Shown: piece after piece, positions 7,033-52,405 of the stretch
How the letters are laid out: each line of letters opens with the position of its first letter
Position numbering within the stretch: position 1 is the first letter of the stretch
Assembly (NCBI GenBank): GCA_040879165.1
Contig: JBBDKV010000028.1
Span: 1 to 59,895 of the forward strand
DNA from: Patescibacteria group bacterium
Lineage (GTDB): Bacteria > Patescibacteriota > Microgenomatia > UBA1400 > PJMF01
DNA: 59,895 nt
Direction of reading: 5' to 3'
Program-made: the position numbers and the translations under genes
The notes under the pieces: generated by a model
Database searches by the model: none
Seen by the model: the letters and a program-made list of their open reading frames with translations, nothing else
Told to the model about the DNA's origin: nothing

Positions 7033-8829
7033 ATGTCACAGATTCAGCAAGTTAAGGACGCGCATAACATCGTCGATATCATCGGTAATCGATTGACGTT
7101 GCAGCGAGCAGGCTCTAATTTTAAGGGGTTGTGTCCGTTTCATAGTGAAAAAAGCCCTTCTTTTTTTGTCAGTGAAGAAATGCAGCGCTTCAGATGTTTT
7201 GGTTGTGGCGAAAGTGGTGATGTATACACCTTTTTAGAAAAATATGAAGGCATGACGTTTGCTGAGGCGTTGGAAACACTGGCTAAAGAGGCGGGTATCC
7301 AGCTGGAGCAGTTTGTGCCAGACAAGCAGGATGAGCTGCGGTCTGAGTTGCTGGCGGTGCTTGATTTGGCTCGAGAATATTATCATTGGTTGCTAACCAC
7401 CCATGCAGCTGGCAAGCCAGCTCGCGAATACCTCAAGGAGCGAAAAACAAGTCAAGAATCTATCAAACAATTTCAGATGGGCTTTGCCCTGACGCAGTGG
7501 GATGGTTTGATCAAATTTTTACATGGTAAGAAGAAGTATTCTCTAGAGGTGCTGGAGCAGGCTGGATTGGTCATCCGTTCTCGATCGGGACGAGTCTACG
7601 ATCGGTTTCGCGGTCGAGTGATGTTTCCGCTGCGTAATCATCGGGGACAAGTAGTTGGTTTTTCGGGTCGCCTGCTGCCTACTCTAGCTGAGGGTGATGA
7701 TGAGGGAGCGAAGTACATTAATTCTCCAGAAACGCTGGTCTATCACAAAAGTGAGCTGTTGTTTGGCTATAGTGAGCTACTGCAAGCGATTCGCAAGCAA
7801 TCTCGCGTGATTTTAGTCGAGGGTGAGTTTGACGTAATTTCATCTGCGCAGGCGCACGTTTCTCATGTAGCTGCCATTAAAGGTTCGGCATTGACACCGC
7901 AGCACGTTCGATTGCTTGGGAGAACGGTTGATGCAATTGTGTTGTGTCTCGATGCAGACAAGGCTGGTATTGCAGCCACCCAAAAAGCCATCGAAGTAGT
8001 CAACGCCGAGCAATTATCTAGAGAGCGACCGTTAGAATTGCGAGTACTGCGCATTCCAGGAGGGAAAGACCCTGATGATCTGGCCCGCAGCGATCCCAAA
8101 GCATGGCGAGAAGCAGCTAAGCACTCAATTTCCGCCTATGATTTTCTGATAGAAGTAGCTTTTGAACAGCATGATGCCAACTCGGCTTCTGGAAAACGCT
8201 CGATTATGCAGTTTGTAGCGCCGTGGCTGGCTAAAGTGCAGCACGCAGTGGAGCGCGAGCATTACGTGCAAACTCTGAGTAATCGTTTAGACGTGAGTGA
8301 ATCTAGTATCGAAAAGGATCTCAAAATTGCTGCTCGGCCAGAGCGACGAAAACGGCAATCAAAATCAGCAGATAGTGAGGAGCACACTAAGGAGCTCACT
8401 CGCCAAGAACAATTAGAGCGACGATTATGGTTCTTGGTATTGCACTCAAAGGGCGATCAATTTCTCCAACGCTTAGAAAAATTTTCAGAGCATGAGCTGA
8501 TTATGCCAGGTGCCCAAATGTTGCTGAAAGCACTGCAGTCCGCGCAAGCACACGATTGGCAGACAATAGCCCGCAATTTGCCTAAAGACCAGCAGGAATT
8601 AGTCTTTGAGTTGTATAGTGAGGAATCAGTGCTCGATCAAGACTACGAAGTGACGACAGCTGAGTGGCAACGTACCTTGACCCAGTTAAAGCAAGAAGTG
8701 ATACATGGTCAAATTCAGCAGATAAGTGATGCATTAGAAAAACTTGAGCAGAAAAAAGAATTGAGTGAGGAAGAACAAAATGAGCAAGATGAATTATTGA
8801 GAACGTTGGTTGCGTTGCGAAGGAAGTAA
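7033..8829 (+). CDS. dnaG: DNA primase
   Basis: Zinc finger CPFHSEKSPSF...CFGC, DRFRGRVMFP, KYINSPET, TOPRIM VEGEFD / DADKAG and KDPD. Confidence 0.97.
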   Translation: MSQIQQVKDAHNIVDIIGNRLTLQRAGSNFKGLCPFHSEKSPSFFVSEEMQRFRCFGCGESGDVYTFLEKYEGMTFAEALETLAKEAGIQLEQFVPDKQDELRSELLAVLDLAREYYHWLLTTHAAGKPAREYLKERKTSQESIKQFQMGFALTQWDGLIKFLHGKKKYSLEVLEQAGLVIRSRSGRVYDRFRGRVMFPLRNHRGQVVGFSGRLLPTLAEGDDEGAKYINSPETLVYHKSELLFGYSELLQAIRKQSRVILVEGEFDVISSAQAHVSHVAAIKGSALTPQHVRLLGRTVDAIVLCLDADKAGIAATQKAIEVVNAEQLSRERPLELRVLRIPGGKDPDDLARSDPKAWREAAKHSISAYDFLIEVAFEQHDANSASGKRSIMQFVAPWLAKVQHAVEREHYVQTLSNRLDVSESSIEKDLKIAARPERRKRQSKSADSEEHTKELTRQEQLERRLWFLVLHSKGDQFLQRLEKFSEHELIMPGAQMLLKALQSAQAHDWQTIARNLPKDQQELVFELYSEESVLDQDYEVTTAEWQRTLTQLKQEVIHGQIQQISDALEKLEQKKELSEEEQNEQDELLRTLVALRRK

Positions 8830-8879
8830 TTTTCTCAGCTTCTCTGGTTTCTGTATAGGACATTCTTTCCAAAGACTCC

Positions 8880-8909
8880 TTGACAATATACCCCCATAGG
8901 GTATATGCT
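8880..8909 (+). promoter_or_regulatory. Sigma70 promoter with a CsoR/RcnR-type operator in the spacer
   Basis: TTGACA 8880-8885 and TATGCT 8904-8909 (18-nt spacer). A perfect inverted repeat ATATACCC-ccata-GGGTATAT (8886-8906) has the C-tract/G-tract form of CsoR-family operators and lies directly upstream of the CsoR-family gene. Confidence 0.85.
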
Positions 8910-8918
8910 GTGATTCTA

Positions 8919-9218
8919 ATGTCAAAGCTTACTACCAACTGTACACCCGCTGATTCTCTCACCGCAAGTCCTAAAAAAGATGCCAAGAGCGATCCTATTG
9001 TGACGCGTCTGAATCGAGCGCAGGGTCAGCTAACTGGAGTGGTTGGGATGTATGAAGAGGGACGCAACTGCGTTGAGATCGTCCAGCAGATTTTGGCGGT
9101 TCGCAACGCACTTGGTAGCGCAGCTCGGGTGATGCTCAGCACTGAGGCAACTCGCTGTTCTCGAGAAAGAAAAGTGGAAGAACTCGATGCGGTGATCAAA
9201 GAGTTATTGCGAGCCTAG
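8919..9218 (+). CDS. CsoR/RcnR-family repressor, CstR-like (x-C-E-C fingerprint, no His)
   Basis: RLNRAQGQLTGVVGMYEEGRNC..QQILAVRNAL...EATRC. Confidence 0.88.
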   Translation: MSKLTTNCTPADSLTASPKKDAKSDPIVTRLNRAQGQLTGVVGMYEEGRNCVEIVQQILAVRNALGSAARVMLSTEATRCSRERKVEELDAVIKELLRA

Positions 9219-9258
9219 GTATCAAGTAGCGTAGTAAATACTTATAAAGGAGATATAT

Positions 9259-9597
9259 ATGGCAGATGCACAAGCAATCCACCTTAATCAGGATACTTTT
9301 CAGGCCACCATTGATGAGGCTGGAGAAAAACCGGTATTTGTAGACTTCTATGCAGATTGGTGTGGTCCATGTCAAATGGCTGCTCCAGTTGTTGAGGAAT
9401 TAGCTGGCGATTACGCAGACAAGGCTGTTATTGCGAAGGTCAACGTTGACGAAAACCAAGAATTGGCGCAGCAATACCAAGTGGTCAGTATTCCAACAGC
9501 GGTTATTATCAAAAATGGTGAACCGGTGGATCGGATGACTGGCTTCTCTGGCAAAGACGGCTTTACAAAGTTGATTGACAAGGCTCTTGAAGCGTAG
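9259..9597 (+). CDS. trxA: Thioredoxin
   Basis: FYADWCGPC active site; SD AAAGGAG. Confidence 0.96.
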   Translation: MADAQAIHLNQDTFQATIDEAGEKPVFVDFYADWCGPCQMAAPVVEELAGDYADKAVIAKVNVDENQELAQQYQVVSIPTAVIIKNGEPVDRMTGFSGKDGFTKLIDKALEA

Positions 9598-9637
9598 TTG
9601 GCAGTAGCACGTCTAGGCTGACTAAAAAAGGAACACT

Positions 9638-10702
9638 ATGTCACAGCACAAAGTCTTAATTATTGGAGCAGGTCCGGCTGCATATACGGCTGCGCTTTAC
9701 ACAGGTCGAGCACAATTGGCACCCCTGATTATGGCTGGCCCCAAAGCTGGCGGACAGTTAATGTGGACGACTGATGTGGAGAATTATCCTGGTTTTCCTG
9801 AAGGCATTGAGGGTCCCAAATTAATGATGAGTATGATGAAGCAGGCAGAACGTTTTGGCGCTGAGCTGCGCTATGACTACGTGACCGCGGTTGATTTTAC
9901 TCAGCGGCCATTTCGAGCTTGGACTAACAGTGCGGGAGATAAAACGGCTGAAGAAATAGTGACTGCCAAGCCAGAGGAGTATTCAGAGTTTCGCTCAGAA
10001 ATTATTAAAGCTGAGCCTGCTTTGACAGCAGACAGCGTTATTCTTGCTACGGGCGCGACTTCCATTATGGTCGGTGTGCCTGGTGAACAGGAGTTGATGG
10101 GCAAAGGAGTGAGTACTTGCGCAGTTTGTGATGCGGCATTTTTCAAAGAAAAAGAAACCTTTGTAATTGGCGGTGGAGATAGTGCTATGGAAGAGGCCTT
10201 GGCTCTGACCAAATTTGCCAAAAGCGTGACCATTATTCATCGACGTGATGAGTTCAGGGCTAGCAAAATTATGCAGGATCGCGTTTTGAAGCATGAAAAA
10301 GTCAAGGTACTCTGGAATACTGAACTGAAAGAAGTGCGCGGTGAAACAGGGGTGACAGAAATTGTGATTGATGAAGCAGGAACAGAGAAAGTCCTGCCAG
10401 CTGAAGGGGTATTTATTGCCATTGGTCATCGACCATCTACGGGAATTTTGCGCGATCAAGTGGCGCTTGACGATCATGGATACGTGGTAACTCGACAGAG
10501 TGCCACTGCTGCAGGAGTAGAGGCAGCGCAAGCTGCACTGGGCGAAGAAGGAAAAGTAGCTTTTCCGAGCATGACTTCAGTCGAGGGTGTCTTTGCTGGT
10601 GGCGACAATGTTGATATTCGATACAAACAGGCAGTGACAGCTGCGGGTCAAGGCTGCAGTGCTGCGCTTGATGTTGAGCGATGGTTGGAATCTCAAGAGT
10701 AA
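9638..10702 (+). CDS. trxB: Thioredoxin-disulfide reductase
   Basis: GAGPAAYTAA, GGQL..TTDVENYPGF, CAVCD redox motif, GGGDSAMEEA, HRRDEFRAS and VFAGGD. Two extra insertions relative to typical TrxB. Confidence 0.96.
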   Translation: MSQHKVLIIGAGPAAYTAALYTGRAQLAPLIMAGPKAGGQLMWTTDVENYPGFPEGIEGPKLMMSMMKQAERFGAELRYDYVTAVDFTQRPFRAWTNSAGDKTAEEIVTAKPEEYSEFRSEIIKAEPALTADSVILATGATSIMVGVPGEQELMGKGVSTCAVCDAAFFKEKETFVIGGGDSAMEEALALTKFAKSVTIIHRRDEFRASKIMQDRVLKHEKVKVLWNTELKEVRGETGVTEIVIDEAGTEKVLPAEGVFIAIGHRPSTGILRDQVALDDHGYVVTRQSATAAGVEAAQAALGEEGKVAFPSMTSVEGVFAGGDNVDIRYKQAVTAAGQGCSAALDVERWLESQE

Positions 10703-18020: not shown

Positions 18021-18256
18021 TAGGAATTGCTTTCCTACTGTTGGAATAATACACAAACATCATACTCATGAGAATCAATATTCTGTAGGTCTAAATTACA
18101 ACTATTGACCAATCCTTTTTCAGTTATATGCCCCCAGTACGATGACTCGAACAGCAGTCATCCCTCACCTTTTTTGTCAGCATCATAAAAAGATATAATT
18201 CAGTAGCATCCGCTAGTCTAAAACTAACTTCTCTCACCCTCTGATATACTTACCTC

Positions 18257-20129: not shown

Positions 20130-20545
20130 TTTTGCATTAGATGTCTAAAATAAATCTATATATCAATCTTTTTTCACTATTATGCCCCCAGTAGGACGGC
20201 TTGCCTTGGACTCGGACTGGTAGTGATATCCATACGTGCTGATTGAGTCGAGTGAGGTGGAGGCGAACAATGGAAGAGGTTCTGTTATGGGGTTACCATT
20301 TTGATGTGGAATAGTTCGAGTAAATAACTCATTGCTGAGTTGGGGATTAGGTTGAGGAGAAGCAGTATTCATATCTAATCATAATAGATCAGCGAAGCTC
20401 AGTGATCAATTATAGTTTCCGTTTATCATCAAAAATTACTCTATTGTCTAGCATGGCCGAGACGATCAAATTGATTTTTTTATATTTGAAATATTCTTGG
20501 CAGAAAATAATTTAAAAAATCATGTAGAATACTAAGCATCTTATT

Positions 20546-44355: not shown

Positions 44356-46341
44356 TTATAAATTTGGTTGATCAAGTGCTTCTTGCTCAGATTCCTGGAG
44401 CGCTCTTGTTTTATCTGCCAAAAAGCTTCTGAGATAGCGATAGGCATTGACTGGATTAATGCAGCTGAGTGGCTGTACTTTACAGTTTGGTACAAGATAC
44501 ACAGTTTCAGTTGCACTAAACCCGCCCTCTGCGTGAACAGTGACTGTCGCTGACATATGTTGACTAGATTCAATGTCAATCAGAACCATGCCGTTTTGAC
44601 TATTTGAATCAAAAACACTGGTTTTTACCTCTGGACTAGTAACCTCCACGGTTGGCAGTCTGGATAGTTTAACTGGATTTCCTGCTGCATTTCTGGGAAA
44701 GAAAGCTAGGCGAACTGGATTTCGACCGGCTACCGCGTAGCGATTGTTGACGTAGAGTGAACTCTGATCTTGGTCAGGAATGCCATATGCTGCCTCGGGA
44801 AATAGATCAGACCTGAATGCATCTCTAATTGTTGCTAAGTTTGTTTCATCAACTTGAAAATTAATTGTGTTGTCAATCATTTCCATGCTCCACGTTGGTT
44901 GATTCTCGCTTTGTGGATACGTGAGGTTGGTAATGTCAGCAAATTGAGAGTCAATTTCGATAGCATCAGGATGGAAAATCGCAATTGGCTGGTCATTCAC
45001 CGTTAGCACGGCTTGAGAGTTAGTTTTTTCCACAGTCACATTAGCACTATCTCCCTTGAAAAGAGTGATTCGTTCAGGCGACCCTTGCTCTGGTTTGCGA
45101 TTGGACAGGAAATCATTATATGTTTCAAGTCCAGCTGTTTCAGATCCATAAAAGCGCGACCCATCAAGTGTGAATGGAACCACCCACCAGCCTGCCGCTG
45201 CTGCCTTTTCGTCTAGATAAGGGTCTGTAAAATCTGGGTGATAGAGGCGAATGTCACTGATAAAGATCTCATCACTAGATTGGCGAATTCTGGCTCTATA
45301 GTTATCACTGCGAACCCACCATGCTTGTGCAGTTTGGTCGTGCTGCATGTCTGATCCTGCGTAGACAAATACTTCGTCTTGTGTAGTGGCAACAATTTGT
45401 GGCAGTTGGCTAATTGCAATTACGGTGCTAGCTTCAGTTTGAGCCCAGTTGCTTACATAGTCGATTTGTCGCAGGTATTCTTGTTGGTAAGCTTCAACCA
45501 TCGAGTTTTCTAAACCAAGCAATGCGAATGTGTATTCATTCGGTTGTTGGTGAGCTTGATTGAAAAGAAATTCAAAGTAGGAAAATGGAGCACCGCGCAG
45601 TCCGTAGTCGTTCGGTTGGGAAGTAAAGGCATTAGTTCGATCGCCGTAGTTATAGACAGGATCGGTGATAGTTTGACGTACGATCACAGGCATTTCTTGA
45701 TTGTTTGAGTCTGGAATTAGGGCCCAATTATTAGTGGGAAAATATGGATAGTGCATTGGCCCACCATAGAGTGTGTAGCTATCTGTGCCAAATTGTTCGC
45801 GAGTAATTTGATGGGTGAGCACACCATATGTTTCTTTGATATAGCGTAATGAGTATGGGTCGATCATCCAGGAAGTAGTAAAGTCTGGATATTGGTCAAA
45901 CAGTTGATTATATGCTTCGAACATAGTGTCAATTAGTTTTTGTCGGTCTTCAATCTCATAGCCAACCAGCATTGAGTGCTGGGCTTGATACCAGCTAGTT
46001 GAGTTACCAAGGTACTCGACCCCTGCTGCTGCAGCCAGATTTGGAGTAATTTCTAATAGTAAGCCATATTCTTGAGAAGGTTGTTGCTCAATTATGTGTT
46101 GATATTCTTCGTCAATGAGTGCGTCATAGCGTAAAGCAAAGTGTGCCTGAAGATTATGTTGGTCGAAAGTCTGCAACTGGGTTTGAAAGAACCCAATATT
46201 GCCCTCATCACAACACTCACCACCTCTCACTTGATTGATAAAAATCGTGTAGTGATTTGTTTGTGCTGTGACAGGTGCAATGCTTGATGAAAAGCTACAC
46301 ACAGCAATGATTGTGATGAAGAGATTTTTGATTGAGAGCAT
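44356..46341 (-). CDS. Large exported protein with a polysaccharide-deacetylase/GH-like N-terminal domain
   Basis: Signal peptide, HFALRYDAL, GLLLEITP, TREQFGTDSYTLYGGP..PYFP. Confidence 0.65.
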   Translation of the reverse strand: MLSIKNLFITIIAVCSFSSSIAPVTAQTNHYTIFINQVRGGECCDEGNIGFFQTQLQTFDQHNLQAHFALRYDALIDEEYQHIIEQQPSQEYGLLLEITPNLAAAAGVEYLGNSTSWYQAQHSMLVGYEIEDRQKLIDTMFEAYNQLFDQYPDFTTSWMIDPYSLRYIKETYGVLTHQITREQFGTDSYTLYGGPMHYPYFPTNNWALIPDSNNQEMPVIVRQTITDPVYNYGDRTNAFTSQPNDYGLRGAPFSYFEFLFNQAHQQPNEYTFALLGLENSMVEAYQQEYLRQIDYVSNWAQTEASTVIAISQLPQIVATTQDEVFVYAGSDMQHDQTAQAWWVRSDNYRARIRQSSDEIFISDIRLYHPDFTDPYLDEKAAAAGWWVVPFTLDGSRFYGSETAGLETYNDFLSNRKPEQGSPERITLFKGDSANVTVEKTNSQAVLTVNDQPIAIFHPDAIEIDSQFADITNLTYPQSENQPTWSMEMIDNTINFQVDETNLATIRDAFRSDLFPEAAYGIPDQDQSSLYVNNRYAVAGRNPVRLAFFPRNAAGNPVKLSRLPTVEVTSPEVKTSVFDSNSQNGMVLIDIESSQHMSATVTVHAEGGFSATETVYLVPNCKVQPLSCINPVNAYRYLRSFLADKTRALQESEQEALDQPNL

Positions 46342-46414
46342 ATGGTTATAATTACGTATTCTACTACATGGTATCTAGACAATCTTGTTTGTATTTTTCA
46401 TAAGTGGTCAGCAC

Positions 46415-46487
46415 ATTTTTCCAGAGAATTTTCTAATTCTTCAATTTAAGGTAGATCTAAGTGATTTGTTGGTTCGTCCAGAATCAG
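46415..46487 (+). repeat. 73-bp diverged copy of an internal segment of the ABC-F gene (48981-49053)
   Basis: 69/73 identity. The minus strand reads LILDEPTNHLDLP*IEELENSLEK, with three synonymous changes and one nonsense change. Confidence 0.92.
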
Positions 46488-46529
46488 TACAATGCTGCCT
46501 GTCTGACAAAACAACTGATATAATAAATC

Positions 46530-46910
46530 ATGTTTAAAAACAGCACTTCCTTTAATGTGCTCTACACAAATGATATCACTAACACACGTCGATTTTTTAG
46601 TGGATTTGGACTTGAAATTCAAGAACTTGATGCAGAGAAAGTTGTAGTGATTTTTGGTTCATTTGAGCTGCATTTTATTTTGAGATCAGCTGAGTCAACA
46701 AAGGATTATCAGTACATCACTGAAGTAAAAAATTGTGGTCAAGGAATCATTTTTTATATTCAGACAACAGATATCGATGGTGCTAAGGAGCTCATTGAAA
46801 AACATGGCGGCGTGATAAAGTCGCCAATATTTACTAATCATTGGAATTGCAGGGAGTTGCTGTTCGAAGATCCCAATGGCTATAAATTTGCGGTATTTCA
46901 AGAAGTTTGA
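46530..46910 (+). CDS. VOC/glyoxalase family protein
   Basis: LYTNDI..TRRFF, HWNCRELLFEDPNGY; TATAAT-5nt-ATG start. Confidence 0.88.
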   Translation: MFKNSTSFNVLYTNDITNTRRFFSGFGLEIQELDAEKVVVIFGSFELHFILRSAESTKDYQYITEVKNCGQGIIFYIQTTDIDGAKELIEKHGGVIKSPIFTNHWNCRELLFEDPNGYKFAVFQEV

Positions 46911-46913
46911 AGT

Positions 46914-48161
46914 ATGTATTTGATCAAATTAGACAAGGAGATTGTGAACATTAATCAATTTTTTTCAAAAATAAAAGAAGAAGAGGTGCGAAATAGCTCA
47001 TTTTTGCATTTAACAGCAAACGAGCCAGTCATGTCTCAGACCGCTCGATCATTTATGAGTTCTAAGTTAGCTGATAGGTATTTCATGGGCGCGGGAGTAG
47101 ATGGCAAGGTAGATCTTGGTCCGTTAACAGCTCTTGGTTTTCCCGGAGTGGCTGAGTTGGTTGAAGCTGCTGAGAATGCAGCAAAAGAAATGCTTGGAGC
47201 TCAAATTGTAAACTTGAGCTGTCTTTCTGGTGTTCATGCAATGATGTGCGCTATTTTGTCGACAACTGAGCCGGGAGATGTAGTTATGACAGTGCATCAT
47301 GATCACGGCGGGCATTTTGCAACTCAAGGTATTTTGGATCGAGTCGGCAGAAAGCATGTTTTTGCAGAATATGATTTTAAGACACTGTCATTCGATACAG
47401 AAAAGCTGGCTCAAAAATATCAAGAATCAGGTGCCAAAGCATTTTACATGGATGTTTCTTATTATGTTAATCCACACAATTTAAGAGAAATCAGAGAAGC
47501 GTTGGGTGCAGAAGCAATTATTATTTATGATGCCAGTCACACCATGGGGTTGATTATGGGTCAGACATTTCAAGATCCTTTTGTTGAAGGCGCAGATGTA
47601 ATTTGTGCTAACACACATAAGACATTACCTGGTCCGCACAAAGGCATGATTGCATTTAAAAATGCAAAATTAGGTGAAAAAGCGAATGATATTATAGATG
47701 ATTGTTTGTATTCCACACCCCAATTACATCACATGATTGCACTTGCTACCACTATCTTGGAAATGAAAGAATTCGGTCAAGCGTATGCTCAGCAGGTTAT
47801 CATAAATTCAAACGCTCTGGGCACTGCATTATCTAAACGAGGAATGGAAGTTCGTAACGCTAATACTGGTCGTTATTCTGAAAATCATCAAGTACACCTC
47901 TTATCTAAAAAAATTGGAGATTATCGGGATCTGTATGATCGGTTACACAAAAATAACATCACCAGTAATTTTGACAATGTTTTTGATACTGGAATGTTTT
48001 TGAGAATTGGTACCCAGGAAGTGACGCGAAGGGGAATGAAAGAAACCGAGATGCAGCAGATTGCAGCCTTTATTGATCGGGCATTTAAAGGAGAGTTGTT
48101 TTCTGATGAGGTTGCTCGTTTTGTGAGCAAATTTCAGAAGGTGGAGTATTCGTTTGATTAA
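46914..48161 (+). CDS. PLP-dependent SHMT-superfamily enzyme, non-canonical (threonine-transaldolase-like)
   Basis: LTANE, LSGVHAM, GGHFAT, YDASH, NTHKTLPGPHKG (Schiff-base Lys) and LRIGTQEVTRRG. It lacks the canonical GlyA KYAEGY, QPHSG and GGHLTHG motifs. Confidence 0.82.
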   Translation: MYLIKLDKEIVNINQFFSKIKEEEVRNSSFLHLTANEPVMSQTARSFMSSKLADRYFMGAGVDGKVDLGPLTALGFPGVAELVEAAENAAKEMLGAQIVNLSCLSGVHAMMCAILSTTEPGDVVMTVHHDHGGHFATQGILDRVGRKHVFAEYDFKTLSFDTEKLAQKYQESGAKAFYMDVSYYVNPHNLREIREALGAEAIIIYDASHTMGLIMGQTFQDPFVEGADVICANTHKTLPGPHKGMIAFKNAKLGEKANDIIDDCLYSTPQLHHMIALATTILEMKEFGQAYAQQVIINSNALGTALSKRGMEVRNANTGRYSENHQVHLLSKKIGDYRDLYDRLHKNNITSNFDNVFDTGMFLRIGTQEVTRRGMKETEMQQIAAFIDRAFKGELFSDEVARFVSKFQKVEYSFD

Positions 48162-48217
48162 GCTGATATGGTTGATAGATCCAGGCTTGAGGTCGTTTTG
48201 TGTAAAAAATTATTTTT

Positions 48218-48877
48218 ATGAAAATCTCAGGATTTAAAGAAACTATCGAGTGGTACGATCACAATGCACAGCAGTATGCTGAGGCAAGTAAAGATTTGGT
48301 ATCTCATGATCAGCTTGCAGCATTCGTTGAGCTGTTAGCTGAAGATAGTAGGATTCTGGACGCTGGTTGTGGTTCGGGCAGGGATACTGCGTTATTGAGT
48401 AGTAAAGGACTTAATACGATTGGTCTTGACCTCTCAAGTGGCTTAATAGCTGAAGCAAGAAAAAGGTTTCCTGACCAGGAATTTATCGCTGGCAGCTTTT
48501 TGGCATTGCCATTTAATGATGAATCTTTTGATGGTGTCTGGGCACATGCCTCATTGGTTCATCTGGAAACGGAGACTGATGTTAAGCAAGCTTTAACTGA
48601 ATTTAAGAGAGTCTTAAAAACGGGCGGCATTTTGCATGTCCTCGTGAAAGCGCAGACTGCAGCAGATAAAACGGCAGTAGTTTCTGACAAGCTCTCAGGT
48701 CATGATCGATTTTTTCAATACTTCACCTTAGATGAAGTGTCATCATTATTACAAGAGCACAATTTTGAAGTCATTCAGTCTGAGCAATATAACGAGGCGG
48801 AGAGGGATCCAAACGGTAGGCCAGAAGTGGAGTGGATAGCAGTTTTGAGTAAAAAAACGCTCGTTGCTGCTAGGTAG
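48218..48877 (+). CDS. Class I SAM-dependent methyltransferase
   Basis: ILDAGCGSGRD, GLDLS, FDGVWAHASLVH and RVLKTGG. Confidence 0.92.
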   Translation: MKISGFKETIEWYDHNAQQYAEASKDLVSHDQLAAFVELLAEDSRILDAGCGSGRDTALLSSKGLNTIGLDLSSGLIAEARKRFPDQEFIAGSFLALPFNDESFDGVWAHASLVHLETETDVKQALTEFKRVLKTGGILHVLVKAQTAADKTAVVSDKLSGHDRFFQYFTLDEVSSLLQEHNFEVIQSEQYNEAERDPNGRPEVEWIAVLSKKTLVAAR

Positions 48878-48903
48878 TTCTAAATTTTCCAGTGGGCAGG
48901 ATG

Positions 48904-50526
48904 TCAAATCTCCACCACTTTCCCACCCATTCGTTTGACGAAATAAGTGTCGTGGGTGATGTACAGAATGCCGCCGGCAAATTTTTCCAGGGAGTTTTCT
49001 AATTCTTCAATTGAAGGTAGATCTAAGTGATTTGTTGGTTCGTCTAGAATCAGCAGATTTGGTTCGCCGATAAACATTTTTATTAGTTGAAATCGTGCCT
49101 TCTGCCCACCCGATAGATGTGCTATTTTTTGCCTACCATCTTGAATGGGGTCGAACAAGTATTGTGCCAACAACTTTTTGACTTGCTGAGTGTCAATTGG
49201 TACTTTTTTCTCATCATAACTGAGCATGATCGCATCTTCGAGCGGGAGCGATAAGTAACGCTCACTGATTTCTTGTTCGTACTCACCGATACGCAGGTCA
49301 GGGTCAACTAGAATTTCACCTTCCAGCTGTTTGGCGATCGGCTTGTGTCCTTTTGCTAGCGAGAGTATGGTGCGCACGAGCGTACTCTTTCCTGCACCAT
49401 TTTTACCTTTGATAAATACCCGATCAGTTGCGCCGACTGTAAAACTCAGCCCGCTAAAAACTGGCTCTGTGTATCCTAAAGCGAGGTTCCTGACCCTGAT
49501 CAAATCAGAGCTGTGTTTGTTTTCTGTGACGGTGGTAATCTGAATATTTTTTTGTTTAAATTTGTGATACGAATCGACTACTTTTTTATCCATAGCATCG
49601 ACTGAATCTTGATCAATCCAAAAAGATGGCTTGACAGTTTCAGCTTTTATTTTTTCGTACTCTCGCAGCCATTGATCGTAGCGCGTTTTCCATGCCTTAC
49701 TTTTGGCGCGCATTTGCATGCCCCACTCAACTCGTTTTTTGGCTTCTTGGAGTCGGTTGAGCTGGTCTGAATACAGTTTTACTGATGTGAGGGTTTGATT
49801 GGCATTTTGGGAAATGTATTTATCGTAATTACCCTTGAAAATGTCAATTTTTTGTTCTTTTAGCTCAATAATTCTATTGACGCTGCGTAGTACATCGCGA
49901 TCGTGGGTGACCACGACTACTGTTTGTGAAAGCCTACTCATCCAATTTATAAAACGATTTTTCCCCAAGTAATCCATGTGATTGGTGGGTTCGTCGACGA
50001 GTAAGAGGTCGGATTGTGAGAACATCATCCGGGTCATCTCCACGTAGCGCTTTTCCCCACCTGAAAGCTTGGCAAGCGGCATCTGTGCTGCCTCAGTTGA
50101 CATGCCAAAATCTTTGAGCGTGCTTGTAATTGCCGCTTCAATGTTGAAGTATTTTCTTTCTGTACAGTATTCCAAGACCTTTAGATAGCGATCAAGGTTG
50201 GTGGTAAGACCTTGTTCATAATCAGAGATGACCTTGAGGTACTGATGGTAATTGGGAACACTGTTTAGGATATACTCCAATGCTGATTGTTGAGCATCTT
50301 CAATATGTTCTTGCTTGGTGAGTGTAATGCGCAGACCCTTGCGACTTTCAACCTGACCGCCGAAATCTGTGTCTTCACCGCTGAGAATTTTGAGCAGGGT
50401 GGTTTTGCCGTATCCGTTTCTCCCCACCAAAGCAATTTTTTCGCCGTCACTAATACTAAAGCTCAGATCTTTAAACAGATTCTTAGCGCCAATGGATTTT
50501 GATAGGTTAGTGGTTCCAATTAACAG
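48904..50526 (-). CDS. ABC-F family ATPase; most plausible start is a CTG at 50526
   Basis: Two NBDs (GRNGYGKTT/LSGGE/DEPTNH and GKNGAGKST/LSGGQ/DEPTNH), no TM. The conserved N-terminal strand LIGTTNLSKSIG lies 32 codons upstream of the track's TTG. Confidence 0.88.
   Translation of the reverse strand: MLIGTTNLSKSIGAKNLFKDLSFSISDGEKIALVGRNGYGKTTLLKILSGEDTDFGGQVESRKGLRITLTKQEHIEDAQQSALEYILNSVPNYHQYLKVISDYEQGLTTNLDRYLKVLEYCTERKYFNIEAAITSTLKDFGMSTEAAQMPLAKLSGGEKRYVEMTRMMFSQSDLLLVDEPTNHMDYLGKNRFINWMSRLSQTVVVVTHDRDVLRSVNRIIELKEQKIDIFKGNYDKYISQNANQTLTSVKLYSDQLNRLQEAKKRVEWGMQMRAKSKAWKTRYDQWLREYEKIKAETVKPSFWIDQDSVDAMDKKVVDSYHKFKQKNIQITTVTENKHSSDLIRVRNLALGYTEPVFSGLSFTVGATDRVFIKGKNGAGKSTLVRTILSLAKGHKPIAKQLEGEILVDPDLRIGEYEQEISERYLSLPLEDAIMLSYDEKKVPIDTQQVKKLLAQYLFDPIQDGRQKIAHLSGGQKARFQLIKMFIGEPNLLILDEPTNHLDLPSIEELENSLEKFAGGILYITHDTYFVKRMGGKVVEI
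48981..49053 (+). repeat. Intact partner of the 73-bp direct repeat (inside ABC-F)
   Basis: 69/73 identity to 46415-46487. Confidence 0.92.
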
Positions 50527-50769
50527 AAGGGTTATTATACCTTAGATAGCCATAGTATTTCTAATAGTGGTTGCCAGCTGGACCATGTCTTGTTTTCAAG
50601 ATAGCTTGAATAGGTAAAGCTCAGAATTCAGAATAGGGGATGCATCTATTTTTATACATATGACGCTCACACGATACTTTCTGAAATGGAAAAGCGTTTT
50701 GATGCTCTGATATACTGTGAATGGAGTTAGCGCATAACAATCCATTAGAGAATCCAGGTATGTGTACGT

Positions 50770-51912
50770 ATGAAAAATCACTTAATTGTCATTAGTGTTT
50801 GTGTTTTTTTGAGCGCGGTCATTTTACAATTATTTTACTTACTCCAAAATCAAACTCACACACTTCCAATGTATGTATATGATTCAAGCAATGAAAAGCA
50901 GCTGCAGACTGCACCAACTACCACTCCTGCCCCAATCACTACACCCCCACCTTCGCCAACAATCACTCTTGCTCAGCCGAAACCAGCTGCATCTGTGCCG
51001 ATTAATGTTCATTATTTTCAGACCTTTAATAACTGTGGCCCTGCCTCACTAGCCATGATGCTGTCACATTTTGAGATGTATCGAACTCAGCAAGAGCTGG
51101 GCAATCAACTTCGTCCATACCAGGTTGCTTCAGGTGACAACGATGATAAATCCACCACTTTGCAAGAGATAGCGGACAAGGCAGAAGAGTTTGGGCTGGT
51201 GGCCTATCATCGACCAGCGGGGGATATTGCGTTGCTCAAGCAGCTGCTTAATAATGGCTTTCCCGTTTTGACCAGAACTTGGCTATCAGCGACTGAAGAT
51301 ATTGGGCACTATCGAGTGGTCAAGGGCTATGATGATGAGCAAGAAGTGATCGTTCAAGATGATTCGTTGCAGGGCAAAGATTTGAATTTTTCCTATGCAG
51401 ATTTTAATGTCATGTGGGAGAAATTTGGTTACGAGTATCTTGTGCTAGCTGAGCCAGAGGATGCGCCGGTGGTTGAGGCAATTTTGGGAGAAATGCTCGA
51501 TACTTCTGTTGCCTGGCAACAAGCCTATCAAGATTTTGAGCAGCGGTTAGAAAACAATCCTGATGACATATATACGAGATTTAACCTCAGTGTTGCGGCG
51601 TATTACTTGGGTGAGCATCAGGAGTCAGTTCAGCACTTTGAAATGGTCGAGTCCCAGCTTCCATTCAGAACGCTTTGGTATCAGCGAGAGCCGTTGCTGG
51701 CATATCAGCAGCTTGGGCAATATGACGAACTGCTGCCTCGCATTGAACATATTTTGAACAATGGCAATCGTGCGTATAGTGAACTTTATCAGATTCGAGG
51801 CGAAGTCTATCTTGATCAAGGTGATGTTGAGACAGCTCGCAGAGAGTTTGAATTGGCAGTACGCTATAATGAAAATTATCAGCCAGCACGTGAGGCATTG
51901 GAGCAGTTGTGA
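50770..51912 (+). CDS. Membrane-anchored C39-like cysteine peptidase with C-terminal TPR repeats
   Basis: QTFNNCGPASLAM, GHYRVVKGYD, QDDSL and TPR-like helices. Confidence 0.85.
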   Translation: MKNHLIVISVCVFLSAVILQLFYLLQNQTHTLPMYVYDSSNEKQLQTAPTTTPAPITTPPPSPTITLAQPKPAASVPINVHYFQTFNNCGPASLAMMLSHFEMYRTQQELGNQLRPYQVASGDNDDKSTTLQEIADKAEEFGLVAYHRPAGDIALLKQLLNNGFPVLTRTWLSATEDIGHYRVVKGYDDEQEVIVQDDSLQGKDLNFSYADFNVMWEKFGYEYLVLAEPEDAPVVEAILGEMLDTSVAWQQAYQDFEQRLENNPDDIYTRFNLSVAAYYLGEHQESVQHFEMVESQLPFRTLWYQREPLLAYQQLGQYDELLPRIEHILNNGNRAYSELYQIRGEVYLDQGDVETARREFELAVRYNENYQPAREALEQL

Positions 51913-51988
51913 ACAACAATTAGTTCGTTTGGCAAGTTTGTCGCGAATTGGTCAGTGAAAAGTGCATCGCAGTTGGTTATAAACGTCT

Positions 51989-52405
51989 ATGGCAGAACTA
52001 AAAACTAAACCTACTAGCAAAGACCCACTTCAATTTCTAAACTCAATCCAGCCTGAGCAAAAGAAGCTTGATGGATTAAAACTTCTTGAGATGTTTGTAG
52101 AAATAACTGGAGAAAAACCAGTCATGTGGGGTGACAGTATCTTAGGGTTTGGTAGCTATCACTACAAGTCAGAAAGAAGTTCACAGGAAGGAGATTGGCT
52201 ACTAGTAGGATTTTCACCAAGAAAGCAAAATTTGTCACTCTATATCATGAGTGGAAATGAAGATAGCGAAGACTTACTGAACAAGCTTGGCAAGCACAAA
52301 AAAAGTGTTGGCTGTTTATATATTAACAAACTAGCAGATGTCGATGAAGCAGTGCTTGGTCAATTAATCAAAAAGTCATTTGAGTTCATGAAGAATACAT
52401 ATTAA
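51989..52405 (+). CDS. DUF1801 family protein
   Basis: MWGDSILGFGSYHY, GFSPRKQNLSLY, LGKHKKSVGCLYI. Confidence 0.85.
   Translation: MAELKTKPTSKDPLQFLNSIQPEQKKLDGLKLLEMFVEITGEKPVMWGDSILGFGSYHYKSERSSQEGDWLLVGFSPRKQNLSLYIMSGNEDSEDLLNKLGKHKKSVGCLYINKLADVDEAVLGQLIKKSFEFMKNTY

What the first reader, a model, noticed from the sequence alone, without database searches (positions are those of the whole stretch)
46415..49053. A 73-bp fragment of a diverged ABC-F allele brackets the VOC-SHMT-like-MTase module
Seen: 46415-46487 matches 48981-49053 (Walker B/H-loop region of ABC-F) at 69/73 as a direct repeat flanking about 2.5 kb. Three of the four differences are synonymous third-position changes (CTG/CTA, AAT/AAC, TCT/TCC) and one is TCA to TAA. 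Inference: the orphan copy came from a functional, slightly diverged allele rather than from a fresh local duplication. This fits cargo entering through an att-like site inside a conserved protein gene, or by homology-anchored recombination. Recombination between the copies would excise the cargo and truncate ABC-F.
Basis: partly seen in the sequence, partly recalled or inferred. Interest (0 to 1): 0.65.

Follow-up and report, generated by a model that had tools for sequence, protein, structure and literature searches.

The report
Orphan ABC-F gene scrap, rearrangement scar
A 77-base dead copy of the most conserved part of a translation-factor-like ATPase gene lies 2.5 kb from the intact gene in a tiny Patescibacteria genome; it is real, but it looks like an ordinary leftover of an old DNA rearrangement, not the docking site of a mobile element.

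Summary
The repeat is real. These are the only two copies in the 1.13-Mb Patescibacteria MAG. An independent k=31 assembly of the source run covers both edges of the orphan. A second run confirms that the resident ABC-F is contiguous.

The orphan is a sharp-edged internal piece of ABC-F, the Walker-B/D-loop block of the second ATPase domain. It carries a TAA stop and has no homology on either flank. It sits in the 188-bp divergent intergenic region between a 661-aa conserved hypothetical gene and the VOC gene. It derives from this lineage's own ABC-F: both copies share a Ser that all eight relatives replace with Ala, and those relatives match only 52-61/77 nt.

The excess of synonymous differences is not significant (P = 0.14-0.25), so an old local duplicate fits as well as a diverged allele. 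Nothing supports an att site. The contig has no recombinase, the genome has no reverse transcriptase, the displaced 3' gene end is missing, and the bracketed genes are not a conserved cassette.

Best reading: a non-functional scar of illegitimate or homology-anchored recombination, later trimmed by deletion, in a gene-flux hotspot. No close relative exists in public data, so there is no empty-site test. Interest is low.

The parts
46411..46487 (-). Orphan ABC-F fragment (pseudogene scar): LILDEPTNHLDLP*IEELENSLEKC(A). It is 72/77 identical to the resident block, has an in-frame TAA, and has sharp edges on both sides.
48977..49053 (-). Resident copy of the block inside the intact ABC-F (aa ~460-485 of the 508-aa ORF): the NBD2 Walker B / D-loop. 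It is the most conserved stretch of the protein family.
46448..46478 (.). Longest perfectly identical run between the two copies (31 nt, = 49014-49044). It is the only shared k=31 word and has double depth in run X1.
48904..50538 (-). ABC-F ATPase gene, 544 aa as called. Its C-terminus is complete and colinear with 540-aa relatives. The position of the relatives' ATG start is CTG here (50526-50524), so the start codon is non-canonical.
46342..46529 (.). 188-bp divergent intergenic region (32% GC) that holds the orphan. A likely extended -10 promoter for VOC, TGaTATAAT, lies at 46516-46524 and abuts the ATG, so the orphan lies upstream of it (read from the sequence).
46530..46910 (+). VOC / glyoxalase-fold protein, 126 aa. 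GC is 35%, the 4th percentile of the genome's ORFs.
46944..48161 (+). Divergent SHMT-like PLP enzyme, 405 aa. It is a paralogue of the canonical glyA on contig C29, occurs in only 2 of 41 related genomes, and is widespread elsewhere in Patescibacteria.
48218..48877 (+). Class I SAM methyltransferase, 219 aa. It is convergent with ABC-F, with a 26-bp spacer.
44356..46341 (-). 661-aa conserved hypothetical protein of Patescibacteria with no Pfam match (best homologue 47%). Its start lies 69 bp beyond the orphan's left edge.

Best explanation
The 77-bp element is a non-functional pseudogene scar, not part of a mobility system. At some time a second copy of the ABC-F 3' region lay next to the 661-aa gene. 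That copy was either a local duplicate or the allele of a closely related strain.

An illegitimate join at 46487|46488 fused the block 'VOC promoter-VOC-SHMT-like-MTase-(intact ABC-F)' to that copy, just upstream of its LILDEPT codons. The join could have arisen by tandem duplication of 46488-49053 or by one-sided, homology-anchored import of that block. A second event, a deletion with its edge at 46410|46411, removed the rest, including the gene's last 73 nt.

Since then the dead fragment has picked up a nonsense and a missense change, and the live gene has picked up synonymous ones. Today it is spacer DNA in a divergent promoter region.

Shown: the fragment, its sharp edges, its origin in this lineage's own ABC-F, and the absence of recombinases. 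Inferred: the order and kind of the two events.
For: - Real and single: the genome holds only two copies, and an independent assembly supports both edges and the phase.
- Both edges are sharp, with no flank homology.
- The resident ABC-F is complete to its last residue.
- The orphan shares the lineage-specific Ser in ENSLEK; eight relatives have Ala and match only 52-61/77 nt. Degenerate scans for that signature found nothing elsewhere.
- Outgroup polarity: TAA and TGT are derived in the orphan, and AAC is derived in the resident. This is the pattern expected for a dead copy beside a live one.
- The synonymous/nonsynonymous split is compatible with this model (P=0.14-0.25).
- The surroundings are a gene-flux hotspot. 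Every relative has different genes downstream of ABC-F, and ABC-F is inverted relative to DUF1801 in one genus. ABC-F occurs in 5/41 relatives and SHMT-like in 2/41.
- Contig C28 has no recombinase and the genome has no RT.
- No Rfam match and no fold signal.
- RecA is present, so homologous anchoring is possible.
Against: - At least two events are needed. No remnant of the presumed first copy survives beyond the 77 bp.
- If all three synonymous differences arose in the resident lineage, its synonymous rate (3 of about 17 sites) is higher than the orphan's neutral rate (2 of 77). This leans weakly (p about 0.05 on my estimate, which assumes all three are resident-derived) towards an orphan that spent part of its history inside a functional gene.
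- No close relative or raw read set was available, so the ancestral state could not be observed.
- A 77-bp neutral scar persisting at 94% identity in a 1.1-Mb streamlined genome is mildly surprising.
Confidence: 0.65

Rival explanations
1. The two copies are attL/attR of an integrated island (VOC-SHMT-like-MTase plus a replacement ABC-F 3' end). The island would have entered the 3' part of ABC-F by site-specific recombination, as e14 and phage 21 do in icd. It could still excise.
For: Direct repeats bracket 2.5 kb. The bracketed segment begins with an ABC-F 3' end that keeps the gene intact. VOC and SHMT-like have low GC, at the 4th and 13th percentiles. SHMT-like is patchy among relatives.
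Against: Contig C28 has no tyrosine or serine recombinase; the genome's five are on other contigs, and Pfam finds none among the ten neighbouring ORFs scanned. The displaced copy should run on to the old stop codon but ends 73 nt short, with no homology beyond. The three genes are not a cassette in any of the six homologue contexts inspected. No joint or circle contigs were seen, though contigs drop rare forms. None of 13 other genomes in the class with this block has a second copy.
Confidence: 0.06
2. A single event created the orphan. A 77-nt stretch of the nearby ABC-F was copied as templated filler DNA (template switch or patch capture) into a break-repair junction between the 661-aa gene and VOC.
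For: Both edges are sharp and the patch is internal to the gene, which one templated insertion explains without a later deletion. The template lies only 2.5 kb away in the same orientation.
Against: There is no convincing microhomology at either edge (only GCA at the left, from the sequence). The 5 differences still require long divergence afterwards. To my knowledge, templated filler of this length is poorly documented in bacteria.
Confidence: 0.12
3. The orphan is functional. If transcribed from the + strand as a 5' leader of the VOC operon, it would be a 77-nt antisense (31 nt perfect) to the ABC-F mRNA. Alternatively, it could be a protein-binding or UP-like element of the divergent promoters.
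For: It lies in a divergent promoter region. A TATAAT on the + strand (46347-46352) lies upstream of it. It is better conserved than a neutral scar might be expected to be.
Against: The best VOC promoter candidate (TGaTATAAT, 46516-46524) lies downstream of the orphan and abuts the ATG. The promoter scan found nothing above shuffled expectation. There is no fold signal (z=-0.16) and no Rfam family. No RNA run exists. No other genome in the class has such a copy.
Confidence: 0.05
4. Assembly artefact: the orphan or its linkage was created by mis-joining contigs at the shared sequence in a strain mixture.
For: It is a MAG. Related populations are present in the same samples: an 86%-identical VOC contig in X2 and an 86%-identical ABC-F contig in X1. 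k=31 contigs cannot phase across the shared 31-mer in X1.
Against: Both orphan edges lie inside unbranched contigs with orphan-specific variants, at the same depth as the rest. The 31-mer depth is double (19 vs 9-10). X2 phases the resident copy directly, which leaves only the window's arrangement for X1. The flanks of the orphan are not ABC-F-like, so strain mixing cannot produce it.
Confidence: 0.03

Closest known systems
Displaced 3' gene ends left by elements that integrate into protein genes (e14 and phage 21 in E. coli icd; from my own knowledge, not tested here)
   Same: A short, slightly diverged duplicate of part of a conserved protein gene lies on the far side of a block of accessory genes. 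The gene itself stays intact.
   Different: Those elements encode an integrase, and the displaced copy runs to the gene's stop codon. Here there is no recombinase on the contig, and the copy is an internal 77-bp piece lacking the last 73 nt.
C-terminal displacement / orphan arrays in Rhs, CDI and T6SS effector-immunity loci, proposed to arise by homology-facilitated illegitimate recombination (PMC5361080; HFIR also in PMC3240628)
   Same: In that model a conserved stretch of a gene anchors incoming DNA. The other end joins illegitimately, and old gene pieces are pushed downstream as orphans without any integrase.
   Different: Those orphans keep the old variable 3' region and an immunity gene, they recur as arrays, and they are seen in many strains. 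Here only the conserved block survives, there is one copy, and 13 other genomes in the class with this block have no second copy.
Remnant of a tandem duplication trimmed by deletion (ordinary pseudogene fragment)
   Same: Direct orientation, short distance, one sharp junction inside a gene, a dead copy with a stop codon, and synonymous drift in the live copy.
   Different: No other piece of the presumed 2566-bp first copy remains, so the duplication itself cannot be shown.
DGR template/variable repeat pair (common in CPR bacteria; from my own knowledge)
   Same: Two ~90%-identical direct repeats, one at the 3' part of a gene and one intergenic nearby.
   Different: The genome has no reverse transcriptase. 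Only 1 of 5 (coding strand) or 2 of 5 (other strand) mismatches fall at adenines of the intergenic copy. The 'variable' copy would be an invariant ATPase motif.

Membership tests
Integrase-mediated island in a protein-gene 3' end (e14/icd type) | Site-specific recombinase inside or beside the bracketed DNA | tested here: not met
   PF00589 and PF00239 match only on contigs C29, C13, C17 and C7, none on C28. The neighbouring ORFs are VOC, SHMT-like, MTase, ABC-F, C39 peptidase, DUF1801, NUDIX and one with no Pfam match.
Integrase-mediated island in a protein-gene 3' end (e14/icd type) | Displaced copy continues to the original stop codon of the target gene | tested here: not met
   There is no homology between 46300-46410 and 48860-48976 (score 17 vs shuffles 19.0 +/- 3.4, p=0.76).
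Integrase-mediated island in a protein-gene 3' end (e14/icd type) | Direct repeats bracket the element while the target gene stays intact | tested here: met
   72/77 direct repeat. ABC-F is colinear with relatives over residues 1-508.
Integrase-mediated island in a protein-gene 3' end (e14/icd type) | Empty site in close relatives, or excision junctions in reads | not testable with these tools
   The closest ABC-F is 81% aa. No member at 90% or above exists for any of 7 local proteins. Four collection scans gave 0 hits. Only Logan contigs are available, not raw reads, and they show no joints.
HFIR / C-terminal-displacement scar | Orphan begins with a conserved block usable as a homology anchor | tested here: met
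   The block encodes LILDEPTNHLDLPSIEELEN, which is invariant in 8 relatives of 63-81% overall identity.
HFIR / C-terminal-displacement scar | Orphan keeps the displaced old 3' region downstream of the block | tested here: not met
   Homology ends at 46411, and KCADHL* follows.
HFIR / C-terminal-displacement scar | Recurrence of such orphans in other genomes that carry the gene | tested here: not met
   Of 401 genomes in the class, 14 have the block. Only G000 has two copies. There is no second copy within +/-10 kb in the relatives' loci fetched by that point.
Tandem-duplication remnant | Novel junction joining the end of the duplicated segment to its start | tested here: inconclusive
   The junction 46487|46488 fits a duplication of 46488-49053. 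However, no other part of a first copy survives.
DGR TR/VR pair | Reverse transcriptase nearby and adenine-specific mismatches | tested here: not met
   PF00078 has 0 matches in the genome. The mismatches are not adenine-specific.
Transposon target-site duplication | The repeat flanks an insert that interrupts the gene, so the gene's 3' end follows the second copy | tested here: not met
   The gene's conserved 3' end follows the first copy (48976->48904), not the second. A 77-bp repeat is also far longer than known TSDs (my own knowledge).

The most novel reading that the evidence does not exclude
The conserved Walker-B/D-loop block of this patchily distributed ABC-F may serve as the homology anchor for integrase-free acquisition of accessory genes by DNA uptake in Patescibacteria. 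On this reading the orphan is the recipient's own block, displaced when a close relative's 'ABC-F + SHMT-like + neighbours' segment was imported. That would be a C-terminal-displacement-like mechanism outside toxin loci, and the 3' side of ABC-F would be a recombination hotspot in CPR genomes.
Probability: 0.12. Interest if true: 0.4.

Novelty: new member of a known kind. Interest (0 to 1): 0.15.

Why it matters
It matters little. The fragment is one datable footprint of illegitimate recombination in a streamlined, uncultured Patescibacteria genome. It marks the DNA downstream of ABC-F as a place where accessory genes turn over. It would matter more only if same-species genomes showed that such conserved-gene blocks are regularly used as anchors for integrase-free gene gain in CPR bacteria. 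For annotation, the practical points are three. 46411-46487 should be flagged as a pseudogene fragment. The VOC-SHMT-like-MTase trio should not be treated as a demonstrated mobile cassette. The ABC-F gene is intact, apart from a non-canonical start codon.

Tried and rejected
- **Flank homology:** I looked for decayed homology beyond the 77 bp on both sides and found none. The 53%-identity, 53-aa match reported by the genome search is the 25-aa core plus noise.
- **Donor allele or empty site:** an exact degenerate 72-nt pattern and a codon-degenerate pattern for DEPTNHLDLPSIEELENSLEK each gave 0 hits in metagenome contigs and genome contigs. Seven local proteins have no cluster mates at 90% or above, apart from the same sample. 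Only runs X1-X3 of one study hold the sequence.
- **X2 as an orphan-less haplotype:** its contig runs unbroken through the resident block. I rejected this reading because X2 coverage is patchy, all pieces are 100% identical to the window, and the whole orphan locus is simply uncovered.
- **Other mechanisms:** a DGR pair is ruled out, with no RT. An integrase island is unsupported. A transposon TSD does not fit the gene's geometry.
- **Structured RNA or known RNA family:** none found.
- **Promoter or terminator enrichment:** none above shuffles.
- **Conserved three-gene cassette:** not seen in six contexts of the nearest SHMT-like homologues.
- **Recurrent orphans in the class:** none.
- **Orthology of the window's VOC to the glyoxalase genes downstream of ABC-F in two relatives:** no tblastn hit at 1e-4.


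Full report
**Observation**

The window is a whole 59,895-bp contig (C28) of a 1.13-Mb, 29-contig, 95.7%-complete genome. Protein names of homologues place it in Patescibacteria/CPR. The repeat finder reports 46411-46487 and 48977-49053 as a direct repeat, 72/77 identical and 2566 bp apart. It is the strongest repeat in the window, and these are the only two copies in the genome.

Read on the minus strand, the resident copy encodes LILDEPTNHLDLPSIEELENSLEKFA inside a 508-aa ORF, called at 544 aa. This ORF is an ABC-F-type double ATPase. The orphan reads LILDEPTNHLDLP*IEELENSLEKCA.

**Is it real DNA?**

Logan k=31 contigs of run X1 are an independent assembly of what is probably the source sample. 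One contig covers 43000-46477, which includes the left edge and four orphan-specific variants. Another covers 46449-48395, which includes the right edge. Further contigs cover 48371-49043 and 49015 onwards. All have depth 7.7-10.1. The only word shared by the two copies, the 31-mer 46448-46478 = 49014-49044, has depth 19.

A k=31 graph cannot phase across that word. In run X2, however, one 461-nt contig spans 48772-49232 without a difference. This joins the MTase end, the ABC-F 3' end, the block and the ABC-F body. That leaves only the window's arrangement. A misassembly is therefore very unlikely.

X2 cannot be read as an orphan-less haplotype. Its coverage of the region is patchy, every piece is 100% identical to the window, and the whole orphan locus is uncovered.

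**Anatomy**

The orphan lies in the 188-bp divergent spacer (32% GC) between two genes:
- a 661-aa conserved hypothetical gene of Patescibacteria (minus strand, start at 46341; best homologue 47%);
- a VOC/glyoxalase-fold gene (plus strand, start at 46530).

After VOC come a divergent SHMT-like PLP enzyme and a class I methyltransferase. The intact ABC-F is convergent with them.

Homology stops abruptly on both sides of the 77 bp. Local alignments of the flanks score no better than shuffles (p=0.76 and 0.41). So the orphan is an internal piece. It lacks both the 1.38 kb upstream and the last 73 nt of the gene.

The resident ABC-F is colinear with its relatives to the last residue...FAGGILYITHDTYFVKRMGGKVVEI against ...FAGGIVYITHDTYFVAKMGGKVVEI.

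**Where did the fragment come from?**

The block is the most conserved stretch of the protein. LILDEPTNHLDLPSIEELEN is invariant in eight relatives that are 63-81% identical overall. At the DNA level those relatives match the resident at only 52-61 of 77 positions, against 72/77 for the orphan.

Orphan and resident also share Ser in ENSLEK, where all eight relatives have Ala. A codon-degenerate scan for that signature found nothing in the metagenome or species-genome collections. The source was therefore this lineage's own ABC-F: either the same gene or the allele of a very close strain.

**The synonymous-change argument**

The resident 75 nt contain about 17 synonymous sites. Take an old local duplicate in which the live copy may change only synonymously and the dead copy may change anywhere. 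Under that model a difference is synonymous with probability 0.36. This gives P(>=3 of 5)=0.25 and P(>=3 of 4)=0.14.

Outgroup polarity:
- AAC is derived in the resident, since all eight relatives have AAT.
- TAA and TGT are derived in the orphan.
- The other two sites are ambiguous.

This is what a dead copy beside a live one looks like. The data do not require a 'functional diverged allele'. If all three synonymous changes fell in the resident lineage, there would be a weak lean that way.

**Mobile-element tests**

- The genome's three tyrosine and two serine recombinase genes all lie on other contigs.
- The genome has no reverse transcriptase. The mismatches are not adenine-specific, so a DGR pair is excluded.
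- An e14/icd-type displaced end should run to the old stop codon. This one does not.
- A target-site duplication would put the gene's 3' end after the second copy. It follows the first.
- No joint or circle contigs appear, though contigs drop rare forms.

**Is the bracketed DNA a cassette?**

The SHMT-like gene is a paralogue of a canonical glyA on C29. It is found in only 2 of 41 family/order relatives, but it is widespread in other Patescibacteria at up to 78% identity.

In six contexts of its nearest homologues it never has VOC upstream or this MTase downstream. In one lineage (L030/L031) it directly abuts the 3' end of an ABC-F orthologue, convergently. That is the window's arrangement minus the MTase.

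The ABC-F orthologue is itself patchy: 5 of 41 relatives and 14 of 401 genomes of the class by the block pattern. Downstream of ABC-F every relative carries a different set of small accessory genes, such as DUF4256, glyoxalase, NUDIX, LapA-domain and DUF1801. In one genus ABC-F is inverted relative to DUF1801.

VOC and SHMT-like have low GC, at the 4th and 13th percentiles. MTase, ABC-F and the 661-aa gene are typical. The region is thus a gene-flux hotspot, not the site of one discrete element.

**Function**

- The scan for sigma-70-like promoters is at shuffled expectation.
- The best VOC promoter candidate, TGaTATAAT at 46516-46524, abuts the ATG and lies downstream of the orphan (read).
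- There is no Rfam match and no fold signal.
- No RNA run holds the sequence.
- None of the 13 other genomes with this block has a second copy.

Nothing points to a role.

**Explanation**

The best-supported reading (about 0.65) is an inert scar of two ordinary events.
1. An illegitimate join at 46487|46488 fused the VOC-SHMT-like-MTase(-ABC-F) block to a second copy of the ABC-F 3' region. This could be a tandem duplication of 46488-49053. It could instead be a one-sided, homology-anchored import from a close strain, as proposed for orphan arrays in T6SS/Rhs loci (PMC5361080; HFIR, PMC3240628). RecA is present, and a ComEC-like match exists but contains in-frame TAGs.
2. A deletion with its edge at 46410|46411 removed the remainder.

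I cannot tell the two sub-variants apart, because no relative closer than 81% aa exists in any collection searched.

Rivals:
- single-step templated filler, 0.12;
- integrase-type island, 0.06;
- regulatory or antisense role, 0.05;
- assembly artefact, 0.03.

With only 31 bp of perfect identity it would be rare.

**Verdict**

This is an ordinary pseudogene/rearrangement scar and is of low interest.

Noticed in passing
window 50515-50540 (minus strand): ABC-F has no ATG/GTG/TTG start upstream of its Walker A. The relatives' N-terminus MLIG aligns to LLIG here, so ATG is replaced by CTG at 50526-50524. The database call starts at ATA 50538. Either a rare start codon is used or expression is impaired.
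   Followed up: partly
window 46552-46806 (run X2) and 49373-49564 (run X1): The same sediment samples contain contigs about 86% identical to the VOC gene (depth 13) and to part of ABC-F (depth 2.4). Related populations therefore carry homologues of both genes and might supply the missing close relatives.
   Followed up: no
L030 7001-9856 and L031 6990-9845: In another Patescibacteria lineage the SHMT-like gene (76% identical) directly abuts the 3' end of an ABC-F orthologue (63% identical), convergently. In L035 an SHMT-like gene lies 2.6 kb from a distant double-ABC ATPase. This suggests recurrent linkage of the two gene kinds.
   Followed up: partly
window 46516-46532: An extended -10 motif, TGaTATAAT, ends 5 nt before the VOC ATG. 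This suggests a leaderless or near-leaderless VOC transcript.
   Followed up: no
genome contig C14 2596-2777, 3932-4108, 7764-7942, 9309-9423; C7 31169-31311: A family of 115-180-nt repeats, 85-99% identical, recurs at 1.3-5 kb spacing on contig C14. One copy on C7 is 98.6% identical to C14 7898-8040. Its nature was not examined.
   Followed up: no
L016 (G005) 7777-9691 vs window 48904-52405: DUF1801 is convergent with the 3' end of ABC-F in genus g6. It is divergent from the 5' end in the window, in G004 and in the P0004 genome. This implies an inversion of ABC-F relative to its neighbour between genera.
   Followed up: partly
genome contig C18 6131-6979: The only ComEC (PF03772) match in the genome carries two in-frame TAG codons within the matched stretch. 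It may be a pseudogene or a frame/annotation issue.
   Followed up: no
window 18089-18147 / 20143-20201 and contig C26 844-971, 6728-6812: A 59-128-nt repeat family (78-88% identical) links the window's 18-20 kb region with contig C26. It is probably the tRNA-Asn-end scars noted by another first-stage reading.
   Followed up: no
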